DNA of 64,000 nucleotides from positions 23,215-87,214 of the forward strand of contig JAPLHQ010000072.1 in the NCBI GenBank assembly GCA_026389555.1. The letters run 5' to 3'. The DNA is from Chloroflexota bacterium (lineage in GTDB: Bacteria > Chloroflexota > Limnocylindria > Limnocylindrales > Limnocylindraceae). The notes below the pieces were generated by a model. The model worked only from the letters and a program-made list of their open reading frames with translations, did not search any database and had not been told where the DNA came from. Shown here in pieces: positions 1,337 to 47,407 of this stretch. The first letter of the stretch is position 1, and each line of letters opens with the position of its first letter. Both the position numbers and the translations under genes were made by a program.

Positions 1337-2018
1337 CGAGCGAGCTGCGGCGCTCGCCGCGCTTGCCGTAGAGATTGAGGCCTGTCGCGCCTGTCCGCTC
1401 GGGAGTCAGCGAACGCAGAGCGTCCCAGGCGAGGGGAGTCCCAACGCCGAGCTCCTGCTTGTTGGTGAGGCGCCAGGGGCGCACGAGGACGCCGCCGGAC
1501 GCCCCTTTGTCGGCGCCGCTGGCAAGCTGCTCGACCTCCTCTTGAACCTCATCGGCCTTCAGCGACCGCAGGTCTATGTCCTCAATGTCGTCAAGTGTCG
1601 CCCTCCAGAGAACCGTGACCCGGAGCCCACGGAGATCGCCGCCTGTGCAGGGTTCCTTGAGCGCCAACTCGCCCTCCTGCAGCCAGTCATCATCGCGCCG
1701 CTCGGGCGGCACGCACTCCGCGCATTCGCCCCGGAGGCGAAGATTTCGGAGACTCACGGCGCACCGTTCCAGGGGGAGACGCGGCAGACGCCGGCGGGAA
1801 CAACGCTCTTTCCGCTCTATCACCCGGCGGCGGCGCTCCACAACGGGGCGCTCCGCCCAACCCTCGAGCGGGACATGGGAGCGCTCGCGCGCGCCCTGCC
1901 AGCGGCACGCTCCACATGGCGAGTTGCTCGCGGAGGGGCAGGGGAGGCTAGTCTGTCTGAGATAGAAGCGGCGGCGGAGCGAGATCAGCTTCGCCTCTTT
2001 GAAAGTGAGGCTCAGTGA
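1329..2018 (+). CDS. uracil-DNA glycosylase, family 4 (Fe-S, SPO1-polymerase-associated type)
   Basis: Motifs CRACPLG and [10 protein letters not shown] (GE(A/G)PG) followed by [13 protein letters not shown]. The ORF track starts at 1074 inside asd. I place the start at GTG 1329, overlapping the asd stop by 8 nt; the exact start is uncertain. Confidence 0.75.
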
Positions 2019-3844
2019 ATCAACGTGGTCAGCGTCCACCTGCACGCTCGCAGGGTCAAGGTCAGGGTCGGGGCCCAGCTCAGGGTGGCGGGCGGAGCCA
2101 AGGGCGACCGCAGCCTCGTGCCGCAGCCCCCGCGCGTCCCACAGGGCAGCGCGCCCCAGTCGGTCGACGCCCTGATCGAGCGGCTCCGAGCGGACCACCA
2201 CTCCGCCTGATTCCGCTCGGCGGGATGGGCGAGATCGGAAAGAACCTCTATCTCTATGAGTATCAGGAGACGATCATCCTGGTTGACTGTGGACTCGCCT
2301 TTCCGGATGAGACCACGCTCGGCGTCGACATCATCATTCCGGACATCACCTACCTGCGAGAGCGGAAGAGCGCGGTCAAGGCGGTGCTGATCACCCACGG
2401 CCACGAAGATCATGTTGGCGCGCTCCCGCACATCCTCCCAGAGCTTCCTGGCGTCCCTGTCTACGCGAGCACCCTCGCACGCGGACTTCTAGCGAACAAG
2501 CTGAAGGAGTACAAGGTCACGGCGAATCCGCTGCGTCCACTCGACCCTGGCGATCAGATCGAGATCGGGCCGTTCGTGATCGAGCCGTTCCGTGTTGGAC
2601 ACTCTATCCCGGATGCGATGGGCTATGCGATCCACACGCCAGTCGGCACCGTGGTGCACACGGGCGACTTTAAGTTTGACCAGACGCCGGCGGACGGGAA
2701 GGCGGCCGACTTTGCGATCCTTGCCCGTCTCGGCGCGCAGGGAGTCCTTGCGCTCGTCTCTGACAGCACACGCGCAGAGGCACCCGGATATACGCCGAGC
2801 GAGCAGGTGGTTGGGCAGGCCTTCCGCTCCATCATCAGCGATGCACCTGGACGCGTGATCGTTGCCACATTCGCATCGAACATCGCGCGCATTCAGCAGG
2901 TGCTTGATGCGGCGGGGGAGTTCCACCGCAAGGTTGCGGTGGTCGGTCGCTCCATGGAGCAGAACGTGAAGATTGCGCGCGACCTCGGCTATCTCACCTT
3001 CCCAACGCCACTGATCGCCAAAGAAGAGATCGGACGACGCAGCAAGGAGCCGCTCGTGATCGCTACGACTGGAGCGCAAGGCGAGCCGATGGCGGGCCTT
3101 GCGAAGATGGCGAACGGCGAACATCGCAACGTAGAGATCCAGAACGGCGATACGGTAATCGTCTCGGCGTCACCGATTCCAGGGAACGAAGAAGCGGTCG
3201 GTCGCACGATCGACAACCTCTTCAAGTCCGGCGCAAATGTGATCTACCACTCCATTGCACAGGTCCACGTCTCTGGGCATGCGTCGCAAGAGGAGCTGAA
3301 GATGATGCTGGCGCTGACCAAACCAAAGCACTTTGTCCCAATGCACGGCGAGATGCGCATGCAGGTTGCGCACGGCCGCCTCGCAACGCAGATGGGCGTA
3401 AGTCCGTCGAACGTCTTCATCATTGATAACGGCACGCCGATTGAGTTCTACGCCGATGGGAGTGCGCGACGCACCACACCGGTTGCCCACGGAGCCGTCT
3501 TTGTTGATGGCTCGTCGGTGGGAGAGATCAGCGAGATCGTCTTGCGCGATCGTCGCACCCTTGCAGATGACGGGATCGTGGTGATCTTCGCCACGGTGGA
3601 CGCACAGTCCGGGAAGCCGATCGGTCGCCCAGTCCTTGTCACGCGTGGCTTCCTGAACGGCGATGAAGATAACAAGCTCGTTGAGGCGACGATCGACATC
3701 GCGCTGAAGTCAATCCAGCATAAGGGCGACCGGAGCGCGGAGACTGGCCTGATCAAGGCGCAGTTGAGCGAATCGGTCTCGCGCTTCTTGAACCGTGAGA
3801 CAAGGCGACGACCACTCGTCGTACCGGTTGTCGTAGAGGTCTAA
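2015..3844 (+). CDS. rnj: ribonuclease J (MBL/beta-CASP RNase) with about 60-aa Arg/Gly/Pro/Gln-rich N-terminal extension
   Basis: LRLIPLGGMGEIGKNLYLYEY, HGHEDHVGALP and a C-terminal beta-CASP region. GTG start 2015 overlaps the UDG TGA (GTGA), with GAGG 5 nt upstream. Confidence 0.9.
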   Translation: MNQRGQRPPARSQGQGQGRGPAQGGGRSQGRPQPRAAAPARPTGQRAPVGRRPDRAAPSGPPLRLIPLGGMGEIGKNLYLYEYQETIILVDCGLAFPDETTLGVDIIIPDITYLRERKSAVKAVLITHGHEDHVGALPHILPELPGVPVYASTLARGLLANKLKEYKVTANPLRPLDPGDQIEIGPFVIEPFRVGHSIPDAMGYAIHTPVGTVVHTGDFKFDQTPADGKAADFAILARLGAQGVLALVSDSTRAEAPGYTPSEQVVGQAFRSIISDAPGRVIVATFASNIARIQQVLDAAGEFHRKVAVVGRSMEQNVKIARDLGYLTFPTPLIAKEEIGRRSKEPLVIATTGAQGEPMAGLAKMANGEHRNVEIQNGDTVIVSASPIPGNEEAVGRTIDNLFKSGANVIYHSIAQVHVSGHASQEELKMMLALTKPKHFVPMHGEMRMQVAHGRLATQMGVSPSNVFIIDNGTPIEFYADGSARRTTPVAHGAVFVDGSSVGEISEIVLRDRRTLADDGIVVIFATVDAQSGKPIGRPVLVTRGFLNGDEDNKLVEATIDIALKSIQHKGDRSAETGLIKAQLSESVSRFLNRETRRRPLVVPVVVEV

Positions 3845-7382: not shown

Positions 7383-7874
7383 ATGGCGACAGACAACTCG
7401 TTTGATGTGGTATCCGATTTTGATCGCCAGGAGATGAAGAATGCCCTCGATCAGACCCGTCGGGAGATCGCCACACGCTATGACTTCCGTTGCGCAACCG
7501 CCGAGATTGAGGAGGAGAAAGCTGAACTCGTCATCCGCGTGGATGGCGAGCTCCGGCTGAAGGCGCTCCGCGACATCTTGGAGTCGAAGGCGGTCAAGCG
7601 CGGCATTGACCTGCGCACCTTCGGCTGGGGGAAGCCAGAGGCGGCTGGGAGTGAGACGCTTCGGATTCACGTGAAACTTCGTAGCGGCCTTGACGACCCA
7701 ACGGCGAAGAAGGTGGTGAAGGCGATCCGCGACGCTTTCCCGAAGGTAAAGACACAGATTCAAGGCGAAACTGTCCGTGTGACTGGCAAGTCACGCGATG
7801 AGCTGCAAGCGGTGATCGACTTCCTTCGCGCTATGGAGCTGGACCGACCCCTGCAGTTTGAAAACTATCGCTGA
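7383..7874 (+). CDS. yajQ: YajQ/UPF0234 family nucleotide (c-di-GMP)-binding protein
   Basis: 163 aa beginning MATDNSFDVVSDFDRQEMKNALDQTRREIATRYDF. This is the characteristic DUF520/YajQ N-terminus and length. Confidence 0.8.
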   Translation: MATDNSFDVVSDFDRQEMKNALDQTRREIATRYDFRCATAEIEEEKAELVIRVDGELRLKALRDILESKAVKRGIDLRTFGWGKPEAAGSETLRIHVKLRSGLDDPTAKKVVKAIRDAFPKVKTQIQGETVRVTGKSRDELQAVIDFLRAMELDRPLQFENYR

Positions 7875-9414
7875 GGCGAGGCGGGTGACGCGTTCGATCA
7901 ACGAGATCGGAGCCGGGCTCGCCCCATCGCGCCCAGGCTCACCGCTCGTCCTCCCGCTCACCCTTCATATCGTTGGCATCGGCGGCACTGCGGCAACGGG
8001 AGCCGCGCTCCACGCAGCGGCGCTTGGCGCGCTGGTGACCGGGTGTGACAGTCACCTAAGTCGTGAGACCGCTCTCATCCTTGAGGCAGCGGGGGTGAAG
8101 GTGAGCGATGAGAGCGACCTCGCCCCGGCGAGTCGGGCCACCCTTGTTGCGGTCTCAAAGGCGATCACCAGTACACAGCCGGATCACCCGCAACTCCACG
8201 CCGCACGGGCGGCCGGTGTCCCGATCGTCTCACTGCAGCAGGTGATCGCGGATGCCGCTGCGAGCCGCGGAGGGGCACTCCTGGGGGTTGCAGGGACGCA
8301 TGGGAAGACAACCTCCACCGGTTGGCTCCTCGCCGCGCTCCGCGCGTCAGGGCGAGACCCTTCTGCGTTCGTAGGTGGACCACTCCCAGCGGGGCAGGGG
8401 AGCCCAGCAGGCTCACCAGTCCACCTCGGGGGAGAGCAAGGCTTCATCGTGGAGGCAGACGAATACGGAGGAAACTTTGACCCGTACGCCGCAGACGCGG
8501 CCCTGATCCTCAACGTTGACTGGGATCACCCCGACATTTTCGCCGACCGTGCCGCCGCCGTCGCCACATTCGTTGCCTGGGGGGCGCCAGTTCTTCAACA
8601 CGGCGCGCTCGTAGTGAATGTTGGAGATGCTGGTGGTGCCGAGGCGGCCGCGGCGCTTGAGCAGCACGACCGGGGGAACCTCATTCGTTACGCCGTCCGT
8701 TCGCACGGACGCACAGAGACAGTCGCAGATGTCACTGCCGATCTTGAACTCGCCCCTGCGGGAGCGGTGCAACTCAGCAACCTGACGCTGAGTGAGCGAG
8801 CAGGCCAACTCGCCCCTGCGCTGGTTGAGCTGCAGGGGAAGACACTAACGATCGGCCTCCTTGGGGCGCACAACGCGGCGAATGCGCTCGGTGTGGCGAC
8901 CCTTGCCGCGACTTCAGGGGGAACGGGGGTGGGGATCACCGCGGCGCTCGCCGGCTACCCAGGGGTGGGGCGGCGAATGGAGGTGCGCTATGACCAGAAC
9001 GGGTTCACGGTGCTCGACGATTACGGCCACCACCCCACGGCGATTGACGCCACGATCTCCACGGTGCGCCTCCGCTACCCGGGGCGACCCCTCATTCTCG
9101 CTATTGAACCGCTGACCTATCACCGCACCGCAGCACTCCTCCCTGCGCTCGCGCGCTCATGTGCCGCCGCAGACCGGGTCGCAGTTGCCGAGATCTTTGC
9201 CGTCCGCGACACCGACCTGACGATCACGAGTGCTGCGAAGCTTGCCGCCGCGATCAGCGCATTCGGGACCCAGGCGGACGCACCAGGCTCGGTTGAGTCC
9301 ACTGCGGACGCGATCTACGCCGCACTCCCGGAGGGGGCAGTTGTCCTCGTGATGGGTGGGGGGCGCTCTACCGACCTTGCCACTCGACTCGCTGCGGCAC
9401 TCTCCGCGCGCTAG
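7858..9414 (+). CDS. murC: Mur ligase family protein, UDP-N-acetylmuramate--L-alanine ligase (MurC) or Mpl-type recycling ligase
   Basis: HIVGIGGTAATGAAL; GVAGTHGKTTSTGWL (P-loop); VEADEYGGNFD; LNVDWDHPDIF; GAHNAANALGVA; DDYGHHPTAI. Not embedded in a dcw cluster. The start probably lies downstream of 7858, which overlaps yajQ. Confidence 0.65.
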   Translation: MKTIAEARRVTRSINEIGAGLAPSRPGSPLVLPLTLHIVGIGGTAATGAALHAAALGALVTGCDSHLSRETALILEAAGVKVSDESDLAPASRATLVAVSKAITSTQPDHPQLHAARAAGVPIVSLQQVIADAAASRGGALLGVAGTHGKTTSTGWLLAALRASGRDPSAFVGGPLPAGQGSPAGSPVHLGGEQGFIVEADEYGGNFDPYAADAALILNVDWDHPDIFADRAAAVATFVAWGAPVLQHGALVVNVGDAGGAEAAAALEQHDRGNLIRYAVRSHGRTETVADVTADLELAPAGAVQLSNLTLSERAGQLAPALVELQGKTLTIGLLGAHNAANALGVATLAATSGGTGVGITAALAGYPGVGRRMEVRYDQNGFTVLDDYGHHPTAIDATISTVRLRYPGRPLILAIEPLTYHRTAALLPALARSCAAADRVAVAEIFAVRDTDLTITSAAKLAAAISAFGTQADAPGSVESTADAIYAALPEGAVVLVMGGGRSTDLATRLAAALSAR

Positions 9415-11021
9415 CTCCCTTCAGGCCCGCCTGAATACTGATCTGGGCGTGGCGGCTCGCTCCCTGCAACGCGTGCGGCGTGCTCCTGCGCAGCCGGGCT
9501 GACCGGACGGGCGAAGAGTGGGTGCCCCTCTGAGGTGAGACATCGGCCACTCGCAAGATCCCACTGCCAGCCGTGGATGCTGCAGGTGAGGGTCTCGCCA
9601 TCTTCCGTGCCGAAGCGTGTTAGGTCCGCCTTCATATGTGGGCAGCGCCGCTGCACCTGCCAGCCGTTCAGGTCGAAGGTCCCCTCGGTGGGGCCATTCT
9701 CGGCGTAGAAGCCCTCTGCGTACTGGATCCGCGCCACGGAGAGGCACTTGAACCAGGTGTAGAGGTAGTCGTTGTAAGAACCGCGCCTCCAGGCGCTGAA
9801 GCGCAGCGAGAGGAAGAGTGAGTTGACCCAGTCATCGGTCCGCGTCCGGACGAGATGATCGAGGAGAAGGCGGGGGATCGTGAATCGGAAGTCAACGTCG
9901 CGTCCGTCATCAGCGATCACGGCGCGCTCAGGGAAGTCGAGCAGAAGGCTGGTGTCGTCCGTCTGGATGCGGACCGGTCCGCCGATTCCATCGCAAACAC
10001 GCGGCCCGAGCGCCATCAGCGGTTCAAACCACGCTTTCATGTCAGGCAGGAGATCCGTGCGGGAACCCGCCCACGACGCCTTCTCCGCGGCGATGCGTGG
10101 CGCCACGTCCTTTGCGTACGTGCGCAAGTACGCCTCCTTATCGGCAAAGACGCTCTGCACAGACAGTTCGCCCTCTAGATGCTGCACGTCAAACCTTCCG
10201 CTCGCATCGAACGCACCGATGCTCCCAGGGAGCATCAGAACCGCCTGTTGACCTGCCTGTTGCAGATAGTCAACCATCAGGCGCTGATCCGGGAAGATTG
10301 AGTCCTCGGCGTTGTTGACGTCGTTCCACTGGAAGAGCTCGTCATCCAAAAAGCAGGGGGGTCCTGCGGAGGGGATCACGACGCGTGGGCTGATGATCTC
10401 CACGTAGCGAGCGGCACGGGCGAACTGTGCGGTGCGCTTCTTCTTTGCGAGCGCCTCCTTGGCGCGTTCAGGTAGCTCGTAGACCATCGGGTACCAGATG
10501 GCACCGCTGAACTGCAACAGACAGATATCAATCGCCCCCTGGACCAAGAGGCGATCGGGGTCGATCGGCCGGCTGTCGTTCAGGTTGAGCAGGCGCTCTA
10601 CGCCGTCGTCCACCAGGAGGGCAGAGTCACCGATCGGCCCATCCGTTGGCGCTGTGAGCGCCTCCACGACCAGCGTGAGGCCGCCGTGTTGCACCGGAAC
10701 GCCTGAGACCGTCTCAATAAAGCTGCTGAAGCCGAGTCCAGTGAGCGCCTCACGCAGCTCCGGAAGCGGGTAGGCGGGGAGGATGACTGTGGCCTCCTTG
10801 CTGCACCAGCGGGCGAGCCACTCAGGGTCAAAATGATCTCGGTGGAGGTGGCTGATATAGAGATAGTCCGTGGCGCCTAACGCGGCATGATCCAGGCCGT
10901 CGTTCCGCGGGTACGGAAACCAGCCTGCGTAGTACGCCGGGTTGAACCAGGGGTCGCAGAGGATGGAGCCGTGGGCGGTATGAATCTTCACGCCAGCCTG
11001 AGCGATGAATTCGATCCGCAT
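9411..11021 (-). CDS. fusion protein: N-terminal metallo-beta-lactamase-fold domain + C-terminal Rieske [2Fe-2S] domain
   Basis: N-terminus has YISHLHRDHFDPEW (HxHxDH). C-terminus has RCPHMKADLTRFGTEDGETLTCSIHGW, i.e. CxH-x17-CxxH (Rieske). Confidence 0.7.
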   Translation of the reverse strand: MRIEFIAQAGVKIHTAHGSILCDPWFNPAYYAGWFPYPRNDGLDHAALGATDYLYISHLHRDHFDPEWLARWCSKEATVILPAYPLPELREALTGLGFSSFIETVSGVPVQHGGLTLVVEALTAPTDGPIGDSALLVDDGVERLLNLNDSRPIDPDRLLVQGAIDICLLQFSGAIWYPMVYELPERAKEALAKKKRTAQFARAARYVEIISPRVVIPSAGPPCFLDDELFQWNDVNNAEDSIFPDQRLMVDYLQQAGQQAVLMLPGSIGAFDASGRFDVQHLEGELSVQSVFADKEAYLRTYAKDVAPRIAAEKASWAGSRTDLLPDMKAWFEPLMALGPRVCDGIGGPVRIQTDDTSLLLDFPERAVIADDGRDVDFRFTIPRLLLDHLVRTRTDDWVNSLFLSLRFSAWRRGSYNDYLYTWFKCLSVARIQYAEGFYAENGPTEGTFDLNGWQVQRRCPHMKADLTRFGTEDGETLTCSIHGWQWDLASGRCLTSEGHPLFARPVSPAAQEHAARVAGSEPPRPDQYSGGPEGS

Positions 11022-11106: not shown

Positions 11107-11129
11107 AGGGGGTGTTGGCGCCACCCCCT
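11107..11129 (-). terminator. possible weak intrinsic terminator just after the hflX stop
   Basis: 8-bp GC stem AGGGGGTG/CACCCCCT with a 7-nt loop. On the minus-strand RNA it is followed by CUCUUGGUU, only a partial U-tract. Confidence 0.3.
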
Positions 11130-11136
11130 GAGCCCG

Positions 11137-12432
11137 TTACAGCACCCGGCCGATCGCCCGCCGTTTCAACTGCTGCAGTTCTGCCGCAACATCTGTTGGC
11201 GCAAACCCCGTCACATGCAGCGCCGCATCTTCATATGCCACCTGAATCCCGGTCCGGGCTCGGAGCGCCTCAACTTCGCCAACCACCCCATACGGGAGCT
11301 CCAGGTCGATCGCCACCCCCTGCCGCTGCAGGACCTCCTCTAGGTGATCCCTAAGCTCTGGCAGTCCATCCCCTGTTGCTGCGGCCACCCGGAGCGACCC
11401 TTCAATGAGGGCACCAGCATTCGGGCGATCGCACTTATTGGCGACCGCGATTCGCGGCTTCTCATCCACGCCGAGCTCCTCGAGTACTTCCTGCACCGTG
11501 GCGCGGTGCTCCGCCCAGTGACGGTCTGAGGCGTCGACGACCTCAAGGAGAAGGTCGGCGCGTGCAACCTCCTCAAGCGTGGCGCGGAAGGCGTCCACGA
11601 GCTGGTGCGGCAGCTTGTGAATGAAGCCCACCGTATCGGTGACAATCGCATGTGCGCCACTTGGAAGGCGTAAGCGTCGACTCGTTGGATCAAGCGTAGC
11701 GAAGAGTCGATCCTCTGCAAGTACTGCGTTGCTCCCAACAAGACTGTTCAGTAGCGTTGACTTGCCGGCGTTGGTGTACCCAACGATTGCCACCGTTGGC
11801 ACGCCACCGTCTGAGCGCGCACGTGCGCCAGTCTCCCGGCTGCGACGCACCTGGTCAACACGCGCCTTCATCAGTGAGATGCGGTCGCGGATCAGGCGGC
11901 GGTCAGTCTCGAGCTGTGACTCGCCAGGTCCACGCGTCCCGATGCCACCGCCGGTGCGTGAAAGGTGCGTCCAGAGCTTTGTCAGCCGCGGCAGTTGATA
12001 TTCGAGTTGCGCGAGCTCAACCTGCAGTCGCCCCTCATGTGTCCGCGCATGCATCGCAAAGATGTCGAGGATGAGACGGCTCCGGTCAATCACCTTCACT
12101 TCAAGGACCTCTTCAAGGCCGCGCTGCTGTGTAGGCGAAAGCTCATCATCAGCGATGAGGAGCGTGAACCCGGTCTCAGCCTTTGCAGCGAGTAGTTCGC
12201 GCGCCTTACCAGCGCCGATGTAGGTATCTGGATCGGCGTGACGTCGCTGTTGCCACTCGGCGCCAACAATCTCAGCGCCAGCGGTACGCGCGAGGCTTGC
12301 CAACTCTTCGAGGCTATCCACTGCCGGCCAACCAGGATCGTTCCCAGTATCTACCGCAATCAAGAATGCACGCTCAACTGGTGGGGCAATCTCAATCGGT
12401 GCTCGTCGCTGGCGCACTGCGCGCTCCCCCAC
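11137..12432 (-). CDS. hflX: GTPase HflX
   Basis: HflX N-terminal domain followed by a G-domain (AIVGYTNAGKSTLLNSL, DTVGFI, NKCD) and LLLEVVDASD. Confidence 0.9.
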   Translation of the reverse strand: MGERAVRQRRAPIEIAPPVERAFLIAVDTGNDPGWPAVDSLEELASLARTAGAEIVGAEWQQRRHADPDTYIGAGKARELLAAKAETGFTLLIADDELSPTQQRGLEEVLEVKVIDRSRLILDIFAMHARTHEGRLQVELAQLEYQLPRLTKLWTHLSRTGGGIGTRGPGESQLETDRRLIRDRISLMKARVDQVRRSRETGARARSDGGVPTVAIVGYTNAGKSTLLNSLVGSNAVLAEDRLFATLDPTSRRLRLPSGAHAIVTDTVGFIHKLPHQLVDAFRATLEEVARADLLLEVVDASDRHWAEHRATVQEVLEELGVDEKPRIAVANKCDRPNAGALIEGSLRVAAATGDGLPELRDHLEEVLQRQGVAIDLELPYGVVGEVEALRARTGIQVAYEDAALHVTGFAPTDVAAELQQLKRRAIGRVL

Positions 12433-39540: not shown

Positions 39541-40401
39541 CTATTCGGCAACAAAGCGGAAGCGATCGCGATCCGCAACAAGGTGGCCGACTGGTGCCTC
39601 TAGCTCATGGCTCTGCACGATGAGCCACTGCTCTGCCGCAGCCTCGGCAAAGATTGCCGCCTTCGCATCAACGGAGACCCAAGCGGCATCGTCATAGGAT
39701 GTGACCCAGCGCGGATTCGCCTGCCACGGGCGCATAAACAGATCGCCCATGAAGAGCAGCGTCCGTTCGCTCCCACGAATGATCGTCGCCTGTGATCCGG
39801 GCGTATGCCCGCCAAGTAGGCGCAGCTCAACCTGCGGGAGGAGCTGGCGTTCTGAGATGAACGGCTCCGGCTCCGATTCGGCAAAGAGCGCCTGCAGGAG
39901 CGGTGCGTCGTAGGCGGCGCGGGCCCGCGCCGAACGACTCGCCACAGCGTCAATCTCCGCCTGCGGCGCGACGATCGTCGCCTTCGGGAAGGCGGCGGCT
40001 CCGCTGCTGGTGACGAGACCGCCAGCATGGTCACGATGTAGATGGCTCGGTAGGACGAAGCGCAGCGCATCCACATCTATCCCTGCCGCAAGGAGTGCAT
40101 CACGTGCGCTCACAGAGTGCACAAGCTCATCCTCTTGTGTGCTTCCTGCGGCGAGCATCCCCGTCTCGAGCAACAGGCTCGCGGAACCCGTCTGCGCATG
40201 GAGGATATTCAGTGACTGCAGCAGGCGTGACGCGGCATCAATCTCTGTGTGAACGAGCGGCTCCCACGTGGTGCGCGGCACAGGACCGAAGATGGCACCC
40301 GCATCGCTGCGGAAGGTTCCGATCTGCAGCAGATCTACTCTGACCCCACCGAGATCGATACGGCGAGGTGGTCGCGGTCCACTCAACGGAGCGGCGCTCA
40401 T
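39541..40401 (-). CDS. MBL-fold metallo-hydrolase
   Basis: LPSHLHRDHAGGL (HxHxDH) and a downstream GGHTPGSQATII His motif. Confidence 0.7.
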   Translation of the reverse strand: MSAAPLSGPRPPRRIDLGGVRVDLLQIGTFRSDAGAIFGPVPRTTWEPLVHTEIDAASRLLQSLNILHAQTGSASLLLETGMLAAGSTQEDELVHSVSARDALLAAGIDVDALRFVLPSHLHRDHAGGLVTSSGAAAFPKATIVAPQAEIDAVASRSARARAAYDAPLLQALFAESEPEPFISERQLLPQVELRLLGGHTPGSQATIIRGSERTLLFMGDLFMRPWQANPRWVTSYDDAAWVSVDAKAAIFAEAAAEQWLIVQSHELEAPVGHLVADRDRFRFVAE

Positions 40402-46663: not shown

Positions 46664-47407
46664 ATGAGTCCAGAGTTGGGATATCAGTTGGTCTATAACT
46701 TTATGTCCCTCGCCATCGCGGCGATGGGTGCGAGCTTCTTCTTCTTCGTCTCCGCAAGGGGATCGCTGAAGGAAGGGAACCGCATGGCAGTCACGCTGTC
46801 AGCCACTGTTGTGCTGATCGCGTTCTACCACTACGTCCGCATCTTCGACTCGTGGGTCGCCACGGCGGGTGTCGGAAACCCAGGCGCGTTCAACGAGGGC
46901 TACCGCTACGTTGACTGGCTCCTCACGGTGCCACTCCTCGTCGCAGAGCTGATCCTCGTCCTTCGCTTGGACAAGAAGGTTGAGAGCAAGCTGATCCAGC
47001 GAAACGTGCTCTACGCCTTCCTCATGATCGCAACCGGATACATCGGCGAGTTGGATGTCCAGACCTCCGTGGTTCTTGACTCCTCACGCACGATCTGGGG
47101 CGCTATCAGCACGATCTTCTTCGTCCTGATCTTGCGCGACCTCTTCGGTGGGATTGATGCTTCCTTCAAGAAGCAGAGCAAGGAGATCCAGGGGATCTTC
47201 AAGGTACTCCGCGTTGTGCTTATCGCCACGTGGGGTGTCTATCCAATCGCCTATCTCCTTCCAACGATTTCGACCAGCCTCGGCCTGACGGCTGGGGACG
47301 GGCTCGTGCTGAAGCAGATCGGTTACACGATTGCGGACATCCTGGCGAAGCCAGGCTACGGTCTCCTCATCTGGAAGATCGCAACCCTGAAGAACTCAGG
47401 CCGCTAA
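46664..47407 (+). CDS. type-1 microbial rhodopsin, proteorhodopsin/xanthorhodopsin-like outward proton pump (DTE motif)
   Basis: 247 aa, 7 TM. Helix C RYVDWLLTVPLLVAE gives D84/T88/E95 (BR D85/T89/D96 positions). L at the PR-105 tuning position. His56 in AFYHYV (PR His75 equivalent). Helix F ATWGVYPIAY. Helix G TIADILAKPGYGLLIW with counterion D225 and Schiff-base K229. Strong RBS. GC about 56 % against about 68 % in the flanks. Confidence 0.9.
   Translation: MSPELGYQLVYNFMSLAIAAMGASFFFFVSARGSLKEGNRMAVTLSATVVLIAFYHYVRIFDSWVATAGVGNPGAFNEGYRYVDWLLTVPLLVAELILVLRLDKKVESKLIQRNVLYAFLMIATGYIGELDVQTSVVLDSSRTIWGAISTIFFVLILRDLFGGIDASFKKQSKEIQGIFKVLRVVLIATWGVYPIAYLLPTISTSLGLTAGDGLVLKQIGYTIADILAKPGYGLLIWKIATLKNSGR

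What the first reader, a model, noticed from the sequence alone, without database searches (positions are those of the whole stretch)
9411..11021. Unusual single-polypeptide fusion of an MBL-fold hydrolase domain with a C-terminal Rieske [2Fe-2S] domain
HxHxDH (SHLHRDHFD) in the N-terminal domain and CPH-x17-CSIH in the last 60 residues are both intact. A Rieske cluster attached to a metallo-hydrolase suggests redox-gated hydrolysis, or an oxygenase/hydrolase hybrid of unknown substrate. It lies between murC and hflX with no partner reductase nearby.
Basis: seen in the sequence. Interest (0 to 1): 0.5.

Follow-up and report, generated by a model that had tools for sequence, protein, structure and literature searches.

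The report
NamH-type muramic acid hydroxylase gene
The "odd" fusion of a metallo-β-lactamase-fold domain with a Rieske iron-sulfur domain is the normal architecture of NamH, the known enzyme that turns the N-acetyl group of the cell-wall precursor UDP-MurNAc into N-glycolyl; here it sits in a freshwater Chloroflexota genome (Ca. Limnocylindrus), outside the actinomycetes where it was described.

Summary
Window 9411-11021 (-) is one intact 536-aa ORF with SHLHRDHFD (residues 57-65) and C460-P-H462-x17-C480-S-I-H483.

It is not an unusual fusion. It is a full-length member of the NamH / Rv3818 family (UDP-MurNAc hydroxylase, KEGG K14952):
- The Pfam domain SCP2_Rv3818 matches at E 6e-43, between a divergent MBL domain and a short Rieske domain.
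- It is 46-48% identical end to end to the Tsukamurella and Nocardia homologues.
- There are thousands of homologues; JGI already labels its close Chloroflexota relatives "UDP-MurNAc hydroxylase".

It is also homologous over about 400 columns to animal CMP-Neu5Ac hydroxylase (hhalign 99.8%), with the Rieske domain moved to the other end.

The MBL domain is oxygenase-like rather than hydrolase-like. It has no histidine at MBL motifs 3 and 5. Its conserved set is 3 His + 2 Asp. Its best solved relatives are the diiron β-hydroxylases FrsH and CmlA.

Most likely function: the Rieske cluster passes electrons to a non-heme (di)iron site, which uses O2 to hydroxylate the acetyl methyl and give N-glycolylmuramic acid. 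The convergent murC neighbour is conserved in 61 of 72 Limnocylindria loci.

Verdict: a new member of a known kind. Modest interest: it predicts N-glycolylated peptidoglycan in Chloroflexota.

The parts
9411..11021 (-). namH-like gene, 536 aa, single ORF (ATG 11021, stop 9411-9413)
   Evidence: Full-length homologues.
10332..11021 (-). Residues 1-230: divergent metallo-β-lactamase-fold domain, the putative non-heme (di)iron oxygenase domain
10827..10853 (-). S57-HLHRDH-F-D65, MBL motif 2 (HxHxDH); putative iron ligands H58, H60, D62, H63
   Evidence: Invariant in alignment A1 and 46-48 of 48 in A2. Aligned to CMAH H195/H197/D199/H200 and to the CmlA and FrsH HxHxDH.
10626..10628 (-). D132, a family-invariant Asp; candidate carboxylate ligand in place of the motif-3 His (inferred)
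   Evidence: 72 of 72 and 46 of 48 conserved. Aligned to the invariant CMAH D270.
10575..10577 (-). D149 (in N148-D149), the MBL motif-4 Asp; putative bridging ligand
   Evidence: 71 of 72 and 47 of 48 conserved. Aligned to the invariant CMAH D287 and to the Asp in CmlA 'AADS'.
10053..10331 (-). Residues 231-323: extension between the MBL core and the SCP2-like domain
   Evidence: AF2 secondary structure. Aligned with CMAH in hhalign.
9699..10052 (-). Residues 324-441: Rv3818-type SCP2-like domain
9498..9689 (-). Residues 445-508: short Rieske [2Fe-2S] domain (cluster-binding half only)
   Evidence: Pfam Rieske E 2.2e-8, covering profile positions 40-78 of 88 only. PDB sequence hits to SxtT, KshA and NdmA cover query residues 454-513.
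9573..9644 (-). C460-P-H462-x17-C480-S-I-H483, the Rieske cluster ligands
   Evidence: Invariant or near-invariant.
9414..9497 (-). Residues 509-536: poorly conserved, partly low-confidence C-terminal tail
   Evidence: Distant homologues align only to about residue 508-515. pLDDT is below 50 for residues 531-536.
7858..9414 (+). Convergent murC-like UDP-MurNAc:L-Ala ligase gene (context; functionally linked through the shared substrate)
   Evidence: TIGR01082 murC, E 6.6e-72, 243 bits against a cut-off of 335. Adjacency is conserved in 61 of 72 informative loci.
11107..11129 (-). Terminator-like hairpin just after hflX, upstream of namH (weak evidence that namH has its own transcript)
   Evidence: The pattern scan gives about as many hits as in shuffled sequence.

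Best explanation
The gene encodes a NamH-type monooxygenase, a UDP-N-acetylmuramic acid hydroxylase.

Proposed mechanism:
1. An unidentified NAD(P)H-dependent donor reduces the C-terminal Rieske [2Fe-2S] cluster (C460/H462/C480/H483).
2. The cluster passes electrons to a non-heme iron site in the N-terminal MBL-fold domain. That site is built from H58, H60, D62, H63, D149 and probably D132. It is probably dinuclear, as in CmlA.
3. The iron site activates O2 and hydroxylates the methyl of the N-acetyl group, converting UDP-MurNAc to UDP-N-glycolylmuramic acid.
4. The neighbouring MurC and the rest of the pathway then build N-glycolylated peptidoglycan.

Shown here: the domain architecture, the conserved ligands, homology to NamH, CMAH and CmlA/FrsH, and the conserved murC adjacency.

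Inferred: the nuclearity of the iron site, the electron path, the substrate in this organism, and the role of the SCP2-like domain (scaffold or substrate binding).
For: Family membership:
- The Rv3818-specific Pfam domain matches over its full length, E 5.7e-43.
- The protein is 46% identical (63% similar) over 529 residues to the Tsukamurella homologue (E 4e-167). It is 48% identical to Nocardia farcinica, 46-47% to Rhodococcus and 40% to Microbacterium.
- Nocardia and Rhodococcus are reported to make N-glycolylated peptidoglycan through NamH (PMC2722178).
- The Rv3818 peptide IAPELVRT (PMC10159623) occurs exactly in the Nocardia protein. Rv3818 Pro87 and Ala125 match the Tsukamurella numbering.
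- A neighbour-joining tree puts the query in one clade with the Mycobacteriales and Microbacterium sequences, apart from the 25-35%-identity clades.
- JGI names close homologues 'UDP-MurNAc hydroxylase'. K14952 is namH.

Chemistry:
- hhalign of the NamH family against the CMAH family gives probability 99.8% and E 1.4e-27 over 396 columns. H58/H60/D62/H63/D132/D149 align to invariant CMAH residues.
- CMAH performs the same acetyl-to-glycolyl hydroxylation on a nucleotide sugar.
- There is no His between residues 113 and 280.

Context:
- murC is convergent and adjacent in 27 of 27 close loci and 34 of 45 distant Limnocylindria loci.
- The window also encodes a class A PBP and RodZ, so peptidoglycan is made.
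Against: - There is no biochemical or muropeptide evidence for this organism. I found no report of N-glycolylmuramic acid in Chloroflexota.
- Some actinobacteria carry namH homologues without known MurNGlyc (PMC6194230).
- The step at which NamH acts is still debated even in mycobacteria: UDP-MurNAc, UDP-MurNAc-pentapeptide or lipid II (PMC3605390).
- murC and namH are convergent, so they are not co-transcribed. The adjacency lies inside a syntenic block within one class, so it could be partly inherited rather than selected. It is absent in Tsukamurella.
- All close homologues have Gln in place of the otherwise near-universal His8 of the GHAG motif.
- No electron donor gene was found among the 46 ORFs I scanned in the window.
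- The Rieske-to-iron geometry could not be measured because no model coordinates were available.
Confidence: 0.75

Rival explanations
1. It is a NamH/CMAH-superfamily hydroxylase with the same Rieske-to-iron mechanism, but in this Chloroflexota lineage it acts on a different substrate. Candidates are another N-acyl nucleotide sugar such as UDP-GlcNAc or a nonulosonic acid, or a lipid-linked precursor bound through the SCP2-like domain.
For: - The scaffold has changed substrate at least once, from UDP-MurNAc to CMP-Neu5Ac.
- The family includes deep clades at 25-35% identity with unknown function.
- The SCP2-like fold usually binds lipids.
- The substrate step is unsettled in mycobacteria.
- The clade has a specific H8Q change.
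Against: - 46-48% full-length identity to Mycobacteriales homologues, and the same clade in the tree.
- The SCP2-like domain is shared by all NamH and by CMAH, so it is not lineage-specific.
- The conserved neighbour is the enzyme that consumes UDP-MurNAc.
Confidence: 0.15
2. One reading: a metallo-hydrolase whose activity is gated by the redox state of an attached Rieske cluster, or a bifunctional hydrolase/oxygenase.
For: - The fold is MBL and HxHxDH is intact.
Against: - The canonical His residues of MBL motifs 3 and 5 are absent; there is no His at 113-280.
- At sequence-profile level the best solved relatives are diiron monooxygenases, by 7-8 orders of magnitude in E-value.
- Genetics in M. 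smegmatis assigns the family a hydroxylase role.
- The homologue CMAH is a hydroxylase.
Confidence: 0.04
3. An annotation or assembly artefact: two adjacent genes (an MBL hydrolase and a Rieske ferredoxin) fused by a frameshift or mis-assembly, or a decaying pseudogene.
For: None found. In one Microbacterium plasmid record the homologue is split into three annotated pieces (hit H6), which shows that such splits do occur elsewhere.
Against: - The identical ORF is on independent contigs.
- The same length and domain order occur in 80 GTDB loci and in actinobacteria.
- All ligands are invariant.
Confidence: 0.01

Closest known systems
NamH (Rv3818 / MSMEG_6410), UDP-N-acetylmuramic acid hydroxylase of mycobacteria and related actinomycetes (KEGG K14952)
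   Same: - Same three-domain order: MBL/UlaG-like, then Rv3818-type SCP2-like, then C-terminal Rieske.
- Same length class, about 510-540 aa.
- 46-48% identity end to end to the Mycobacteriales homologues.
- All putative iron ligands and Rieske ligands are conserved.
   Different: - The host is Ca. Limnocylindrus (Chloroflexota), not an actinomycete.
- Gln replaces His8 in the GHAG motif throughout this clade.
- The gene is convergently paired with murC. In Tsukamurella it sits beside acyltransferase and HAD genes.
- Activity and the N-glycolyl product are untested here.
CMAH, animal CMP-N-acetylneuraminic acid hydroxylase
   Same: - Homologous over the MBL domain and the following region, including the SCP2-like domain: hhalign 99.8%, 396 columns.
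- Same conserved 3 His + 3 Asp set.
- Also carries a Rieske domain.
- Same chemistry, N-acetyl to N-glycolyl on a nucleotide sugar.
   Different: - In CMAH the Rieske domain is N-terminal, a circular permutation.
- Only about 19-25% identity.
- The substrate is CMP-Neu5Ac.
- CMAH takes electrons from cytochrome b5 (cited in PMC6481270).
CmlA / FrsH, non-heme diiron amino-acid β-hydroxylases with an MBL fold
   Same: - HxHxDH and the motif-4 Asp align.
- They have a carboxylate-rich, His-poor ligand set.
   Different: - CmlA and FrsH have an N-terminal domain for carrier-protein-bound substrates.
- They have no Rieske and no SCP2-like domain.
- They act on NRPS-tethered amino acids.
- The diiron nuclearity of NamH is inferred, not shown.
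Rieske non-heme iron oxygenases (α-subunits such as SxtT, KshA, NdmA)
   Same: The Rieske CxH-x17-CxxH motif and the local sequence around it (E 0.002-0.04). The logic is also the same: a Rieske cluster feeds an iron oxygenase site.
   Different: - Their catalytic domain has a different fold with a mononuclear 2-His-1-carboxylate site (established knowledge).
- Here the catalytic domain is MBL.
- The Rieske domain here is C-terminal and truncated to about 65 residues.

Membership tests
NamH / Rv3818 family (UDP-MurNAc hydroxylase) | Architecture of N-terminal MBL(UlaG)-like domain, Rv3818-type SCP2-like domain and C-terminal Rieske domain in one chain | tested here: met
   [not shown]
NamH / Rv3818 family (UDP-MurNAc hydroxylase) | Full-length sequence homology to NamH of N-glycolyl-peptidoglycan actinomycetes | tested here: met
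   46% identity over 529 aa to Tsukamurella (E 4e-167). 48% to Nocardia farcinica, 46-47% to Rhodococcus and 40% to Microbacterium. Same neighbour-joining clade. I could not obtain the Rv3818 sequence itself. It is linked only through an exact 8-mer peptide and two residue positions.
NamH / Rv3818 family (UDP-MurNAc hydroxylase) | Intact Rieske ligands (CxH...CxxH) and HxHxDH plus conserved Asp residues in the MBL domain | tested here: met
   C460, H462, C480, H483, H58, H60, D62, H63, D132 and D149 are all present and are family-invariant or nearly so.
NamH / Rv3818 family (UDP-MurNAc hydroxylase) | Catalyses UDP-MurNAc + O2 + NAD(P)H to UDP-MurNGlyc | not testable with these tools
   The reaction is as given in PMC2722178. 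It needs an enzyme assay or complementation of ΔnamH.
NamH / Rv3818 family (UDP-MurNAc hydroxylase) | The organism's peptidoglycan contains N-glycolylmuramic acid | not testable with these tools
   The lineage is uncultured and known only from MAGs. I found no literature on this.
CMAH (CMP-Neu5Ac hydroxylase) | Homologous catalytic region with conserved metal ligands | tested here: met
   hhalign probability 99.8%, E 1.4e-27, NamH 2-432 aligned to CMAH 139-562. The CMAH sequences were validated by name.
CMAH (CMP-Neu5Ac hydroxylase) | Rieske domain at the N-terminus, in front of the MBL domain | tested here: not met
   The Rieske domain is at residues 445-508, C-terminal. BLASTP aligns query 474-526 to CMAH 69-121. 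So this is a homologue, not a member.
CmlA-type diiron β-hydroxylases | MBL-fold domain with HxHxDH and carboxylate ligands in place of the motif-3 and motif-5 His | tested here: inconclusive
   Sequence and fold similarity are the best among solved structures. The His residues of motifs 3 and 5 are absent. Which Asp corresponds to the CmlA motif-3 Glu could not be fixed without coordinates. Metal content is unknown.
CmlA-type diiron β-hydroxylases | N-terminal domain of about 250 aa for recognising carrier-protein-bound substrate; no iron-sulfur domain | tested here: not met
   The query's MBL domain starts at residue 1, whereas it aligns to CmlA 255-480 and FrsH 253-426. The query also has additional SCP2-like and Rieske domains.
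Canonical binuclear MBL hydrolases | Full ligand set: HxHxDH, motif-3 His, motif-4 Asp/Cys and motif-5 His | tested here: not met
   The only His residues in positions 1-280 are 14, 17, 45, 58, 60, 63 and 112. H112 is not conserved. The Pfam MBL models score below their cut-offs.
Rieske non-heme iron oxygenase α-subunits | N-terminal Rieske domain plus a C-terminal catalytic domain of the Rieske-oxygenase type | tested here: not met
   Only the roughly 40-60 residues around the cluster match Rieske-oxygenase chains. The rest of the protein is MBL plus SCP2-like.

The most novel reading that the evidence does not exclude
Limnocylindria, an abundant freshwater and soil class of Chloroflexota, make N-glycolylated peptidoglycan. 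This trait, and the resulting potent NOD2 ligand N-glycolyl-MDP, has been treated as specific to certain aerobic actinomycetes. Their namH has been kept next to a divergent murC that may be adapted to the glycolylated precursor. In addition, NamH and CMAH would be CmlA-like diiron oxygenases fed by a built-in mini-Rieske domain. Neither enzyme has a solved structure in the PDB copy searched.
Probability: 0.5. Interest if true: 0.45.

Novelty: new member of a known kind. Interest (0 to 1): 0.25.

Why it matters
For the scan, this is mainly a clean-up. A feature that looked like an odd fusion is a described enzyme family, and close homologues are already auto-annotated as UDP-MurNAc hydroxylase.

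Three points are worth carrying forward:
1. The family is clearly present and conserved across a whole class of Chloroflexota. It hit 428 GTDB species genomes with two family-specific peptide patterns, and the best 80 are nearly all labelled Chloroflexota/Limnocylindria. The tuberculosis literature, in contrast, describes NamH as confined to certain aerobic actinomycetes. If active, N-glycolyl peptidoglycan is more widespread in the environment than assumed.
2. The comparison gives a concrete, testable ligand set: H58, H60, D62, H63, D132 and D149. It also links NamH and CMAH to the CmlA/FrsH diiron hydroxylases. This is useful because I found no solved structure of NamH or CMAH.
3. The conserved murC pairing supports action at the soluble UDP-MurNAc stage. 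That point is still debated for mycobacteria.

Tried and rejected
- The AlphaFold database fold search (afdb50) was not available. I therefore could not match the model to the Rv3818 or CMAH AlphaFold models.
- I could not obtain the Rv3818 or MSMEG_6410 sequence. Three cluster look-ups on 30 representatives gave Microbacterium, Acidimicrobiia and unnamed metagenome proteins but no Mycobacterium. The single genome-contig scan returned only the 80 best loci, all Chloroflexota-type.
- The gap was bridged through Nocardia, Rhodococcus and Tsukamurella records in the plasmid collection, plus an Rv3818 peptide and residue numbers taken from papers.
- The CmlA papers were not held. The CmlA ligand identities (His/His/Asp/His plus a Glu and a bridging Asp) therefore rest on my own knowledge and on the aligned sequence.
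- NCBIfam has no NamH model. It gave only weak Rieske and MBL hits.
- The promoter scan found nothing. The terminator-like hairpin after hflX is no more than chance-level evidence.
- Model coordinates are not exposed, so I could not measure the distance or orientation between the Rieske cluster and the iron site.
- The frameshift/two-gene idea and the hydrolase idea were considered and rejected (see the rival explanations).
It was then validated against named database entries at 97% identity. Only database sequences were used for the profile comparison.
Full report
**1. Observation**

Window 9411-11021 on the minus strand is one uninterrupted ORF of 536 aa, with ATG at 11021 and the stop at 9411-9413.
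- It contains S57-HLHRDH-F-D65 at 10827-10853.
- It contains C460-P-H462-x17-C480-S-I-H483 at 9573-9644.
- These residues are invariant in 72 homologues of 52-88% identity. They are present in 46-48 of 48 cluster representatives at 25-50% identity. The motifs are therefore not chance.
- The identical protein is encoded on independent metagenome contigs.
- The same single ORF with the same domain order is found in 80 genome loci. That excludes a frameshift or a two-gene artefact.
A murC-like ligase lies at 7858-9414 (+), convergent, with a 4-nt overlap of the stop regions. hflX lies at 11137-12432 (-), followed by miaA and RNase Y.

**2. What it is**

Pfam finds three pieces:
- weak MBL matches at residues 2-171, below the gathering cut-offs;
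- a very strong, full-length match to PF25451 'Rv3818-like SCP2-like domain' at residues 324-441 (E 5.7e-43);
- a Rieske match at residues 457-497 (E 2.2e-8) that covers only the cluster-binding part of the profile (positions 40-78 of 88).

Rv3818 is NamH, the UDP-N-acetylmuramic acid hydroxylase that N-glycolylates mycobacterial peptidoglycan. The literature describes it as an N-terminal UlaG (MBL) domain plus a C-terminal Rieske domain (PMC10050696; PMC6194230; PMC2722178).

The homologue search gave more than 4,699 hits. The best 120 are full-length at 52-88% identity. Many are named 'UDP-MurNAc hydroxylase' by JGI, or 'Rieske 2Fe-2S domain-containing protein' from Chloroflexi, Limnocylindrales or Ktedonobacterales by NCBI. 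In the library clustered at 50% identity there are 2,339 representatives with E ≤ 1e-3 and 274 with E ≤ 1e-30. Tara annotations of members give K14952, which is namH.

**3. Source organism**

Loci at 98-99% identity come from Candidatus Limnocylindrus MAGs, which are freshwater Chloroflexota. The window also carries a rhodopsin gene and ordinary housekeeping genes.

**4. Link to experimentally studied NamH**

I could not retrieve Rv3818 itself. A tblastn search of the plasmid collection found full-length relatives in Mycobacteriales:
- Nocardia farcinica, 48%;
- Rhodococcus ruber, 46-47%;
- Tsukamurella, 46%;
- Nocardia sp., 46%;
- Microbacterium, 40%.

BLASTP against the Tsukamurella protein gives 46% identity and 63% similarity over 529 residues, E 4e-167. 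It is collinear across all three domains, and the Rieske segment is almost identical.

Nocardia and Rhodococcus are among the actinomycetes reported to elaborate N-glycolylated peptidoglycan through NamH.

A peptide assigned to Rv3818, IAPELVRT (PMC10159623), is found exactly in the Nocardia protein. Rv3818 Pro87 and Ala125 (PMC10916221) coincide with P87 and A125 of the Tsukamurella protein. These actinobacterial proteins are therefore close, collinear relatives of Rv3818.

A neighbour-joining tree, without bootstrap, places the Limnocylindria/Ktedonobacterales sequences, the Mycobacteriales sequences and Microbacterium in one clade. That clade is separated from more distant clades (Acidimicrobiia, marine) and from the CMAH outgroup.

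**5. How it most likely works**

The AF2 model is confident (mean pLDDT 86.7, pTM 0.80).

A profile of the MBL domain (alignment A3) searched against PDB sequences ranks the two non-heme diiron β-hydroxylases first: FrsH at 1.2e-15 and CmlA at 2.9e-14. The best hydrolases reach only 1.7e-7.

The query has no histidine between residues 113 and 280, and H112 is not conserved. The motif-3 and motif-5 histidines of hydrolytic MBLs are therefore missing. The conserved polar set is H58, H60, D62, H63, D132 and D149, plus N148, Q170 and S172.

HMMER aligns D149 with the Asp in CmlA 'AADS'. From my own knowledge this is the bridging Asp of the CmlA diiron site. HMMER also aligns HxHxDH with the CmlA and FrsH HxHxDH.

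Animal CMP-Neu5Ac hydroxylase carries out the same acetyl-to-glycolyl hydroxylation. I validated that sequence against named database entries at 97% identity. I then compared family profiles built only from database sequences. hhalign gives probability 99.8% and E 1.4e-27 over 396 columns, aligning NamH 2-432 with CMAH 139-562. H58/H60/D62/H63/D132/D149 fall on the invariant CMAH residues H195/H197/D199/H200/D270/D287.

NamH and CMAH are thus homologous through the MBL and SCP2-like regions, with the Rieske domain permuted from the N-terminus to the C-terminus.

The best-supported mechanism is this. An external NAD(P)H-dependent donor reduces the Rieske cluster. The cluster reduces a non-heme iron centre, probably dinuclear, in the MBL domain. 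That centre activates O2 and hydroxylates the acetyl methyl of UDP-MurNAc.
- Shown: the folds, the ligands, the homologies and the genetic role of the family.
- Inferred: iron nuclearity, the electron route (within one chain or between subunits), the role of the SCP2-like domain, and the substrate in this lineage.

**6. Genomic context**

Among the 80 GTDB loci, 72 have enough downstream sequence to judge:
- murC lies immediately downstream and convergent in 61 of them (27 of 27 at ≥80% identity, 34 of 45 at ≤60% identity);
- it lies within 8 kb in 4 more;
- it is absent in 7.

The hflX side is not conserved in the distant loci, and yajQ changes sides. The murC pairing is therefore the most stable neighbour.

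MurC consumes UDP-MurNAc, so the pairing fits action on the soluble precursor. This is of some interest because the step is still discussed for mycobacteria.

Caveats:
- The genes are convergent, so they are not an operon.
- All the loci belong to one class with a conserved FtsK-RodZ-MurC block.
- In Tsukamurella the gene has different neighbours.
- The murC here scores 243 bits against a cut-off of 335.
- No ferredoxin or reductase was found among the 46 window ORFs scanned. No dedicated NamH reductase was named in the papers I read either.

**7. Comparison with what is known, and novelty**

Membership of the NamH family is met on architecture, full-length homology and ligands. Enzymatic activity and the product in the cell wall cannot be tested here.

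It is a homologue of CMAH but not a member, because the Rieske domain is at the other end. It is not a CmlA-type enzyme, a Rieske-oxygenase α-subunit or a canonical MBL hydrolase.

The literature I could search describes NamH as confined to certain aerobic actinomycetes or surveys it only within Actinobacteria. I found nothing on N-glycolyl muramic acid in Chloroflexota or on the cell wall of Limnocylindria. However, automated annotation already labels these Chloroflexota proteins as UDP-MurNAc hydroxylase.

The finding is therefore a new member of a known kind. The phylum-level extension and the CmlA/CMAH ligand comparison are its only modestly new aspects.

**8. Verdict**

It is not unusual, not a hydrolase, and its substrate is not unknown.
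- Interest is 0.25.
- Confidence that it is a NamH-type Rieske/non-heme-iron hydroxylase acting on the muramic acid precursor is about 0.75.

Noticed in passing
window 46664-47407 (+): A bacteriorhodopsin-like gene (Pfam Bac_rhodopsin, E 4e-40), which would fit a planktonic freshwater lifestyle.
   Followed up: no
window 7858-9414 (+): The murC-like ligase scores 243 bits against the TIGR01082 cut-off of 335, so it is a divergent MurC. Its 3' end overlaps the namH 3' end by 4 nt. I could not check whether it is the genome's only murC or one adapted to the glycolylated precursor.
   Followed up: partly
window 10998-11000 (-), residue Q8 of the protein: All 72 close (Limnocylindria-type) homologues have Gln where 44 of 48 members of the broad family, and also CMAH, CmlA and FrsH, have the His of the N-terminal 'GHAG/THAC' motif. 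The consequence is unknown.
   Followed up: partly
proteins P0153 and P0175 (distant family representatives): These two full-length relatives have lost HxHxDH (SSSGQDR and SSYSQDR) but keep the Rieske ligands. They may be a catalytically dead or repurposed subclade.
   Followed up: no
hits H7-H13 (Halobaculum, Halolamina and Halobacterium plasmids): Haloarchaeal plasmids encode MBL-only relatives that match query residues 1-220 at 26-29% identity, with no match to the SCP2-like or Rieske parts.
   Followed up: no
window 11107-11129 (-): A GC-rich hairpin (8 pairs) lies directly after the hflX stop and 86 nt upstream of the namH ATG. It is followed by an AT-richer stretch. This may be a terminator plus an own promoter for namH, but the pattern scan is at chance level.
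   Followed up: partly
L085 (NZ_LN868939.1) and L086 (NZ_LR134454.1): These NCTC records are labelled 'plasmid' (2.66 Mb for Nocardia farcinica; 289 kb for Tsukamurella) but carry housekeeping genes such as serS and septum-formation genes. They look like chromosome pieces. The Nocardia record has almost no annotation.
   Followed up: no
window 39541-40401 (-) and 2015-3844 (+): There are two further MBL-superfamily genes in the window: an unassigned Lactamase_B protein and RNase J. Neither is related to the finding.
   Followed up: no
L041 and L060: Two loci with Limnocylindria-type namH and synteny sit in MAGs labelled Sulfotelmatobacter (Acidobacteriota) and Saccharimonadales. This is probably mis-binning or mislabelling rather than gene transfer.
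   Followed up: no
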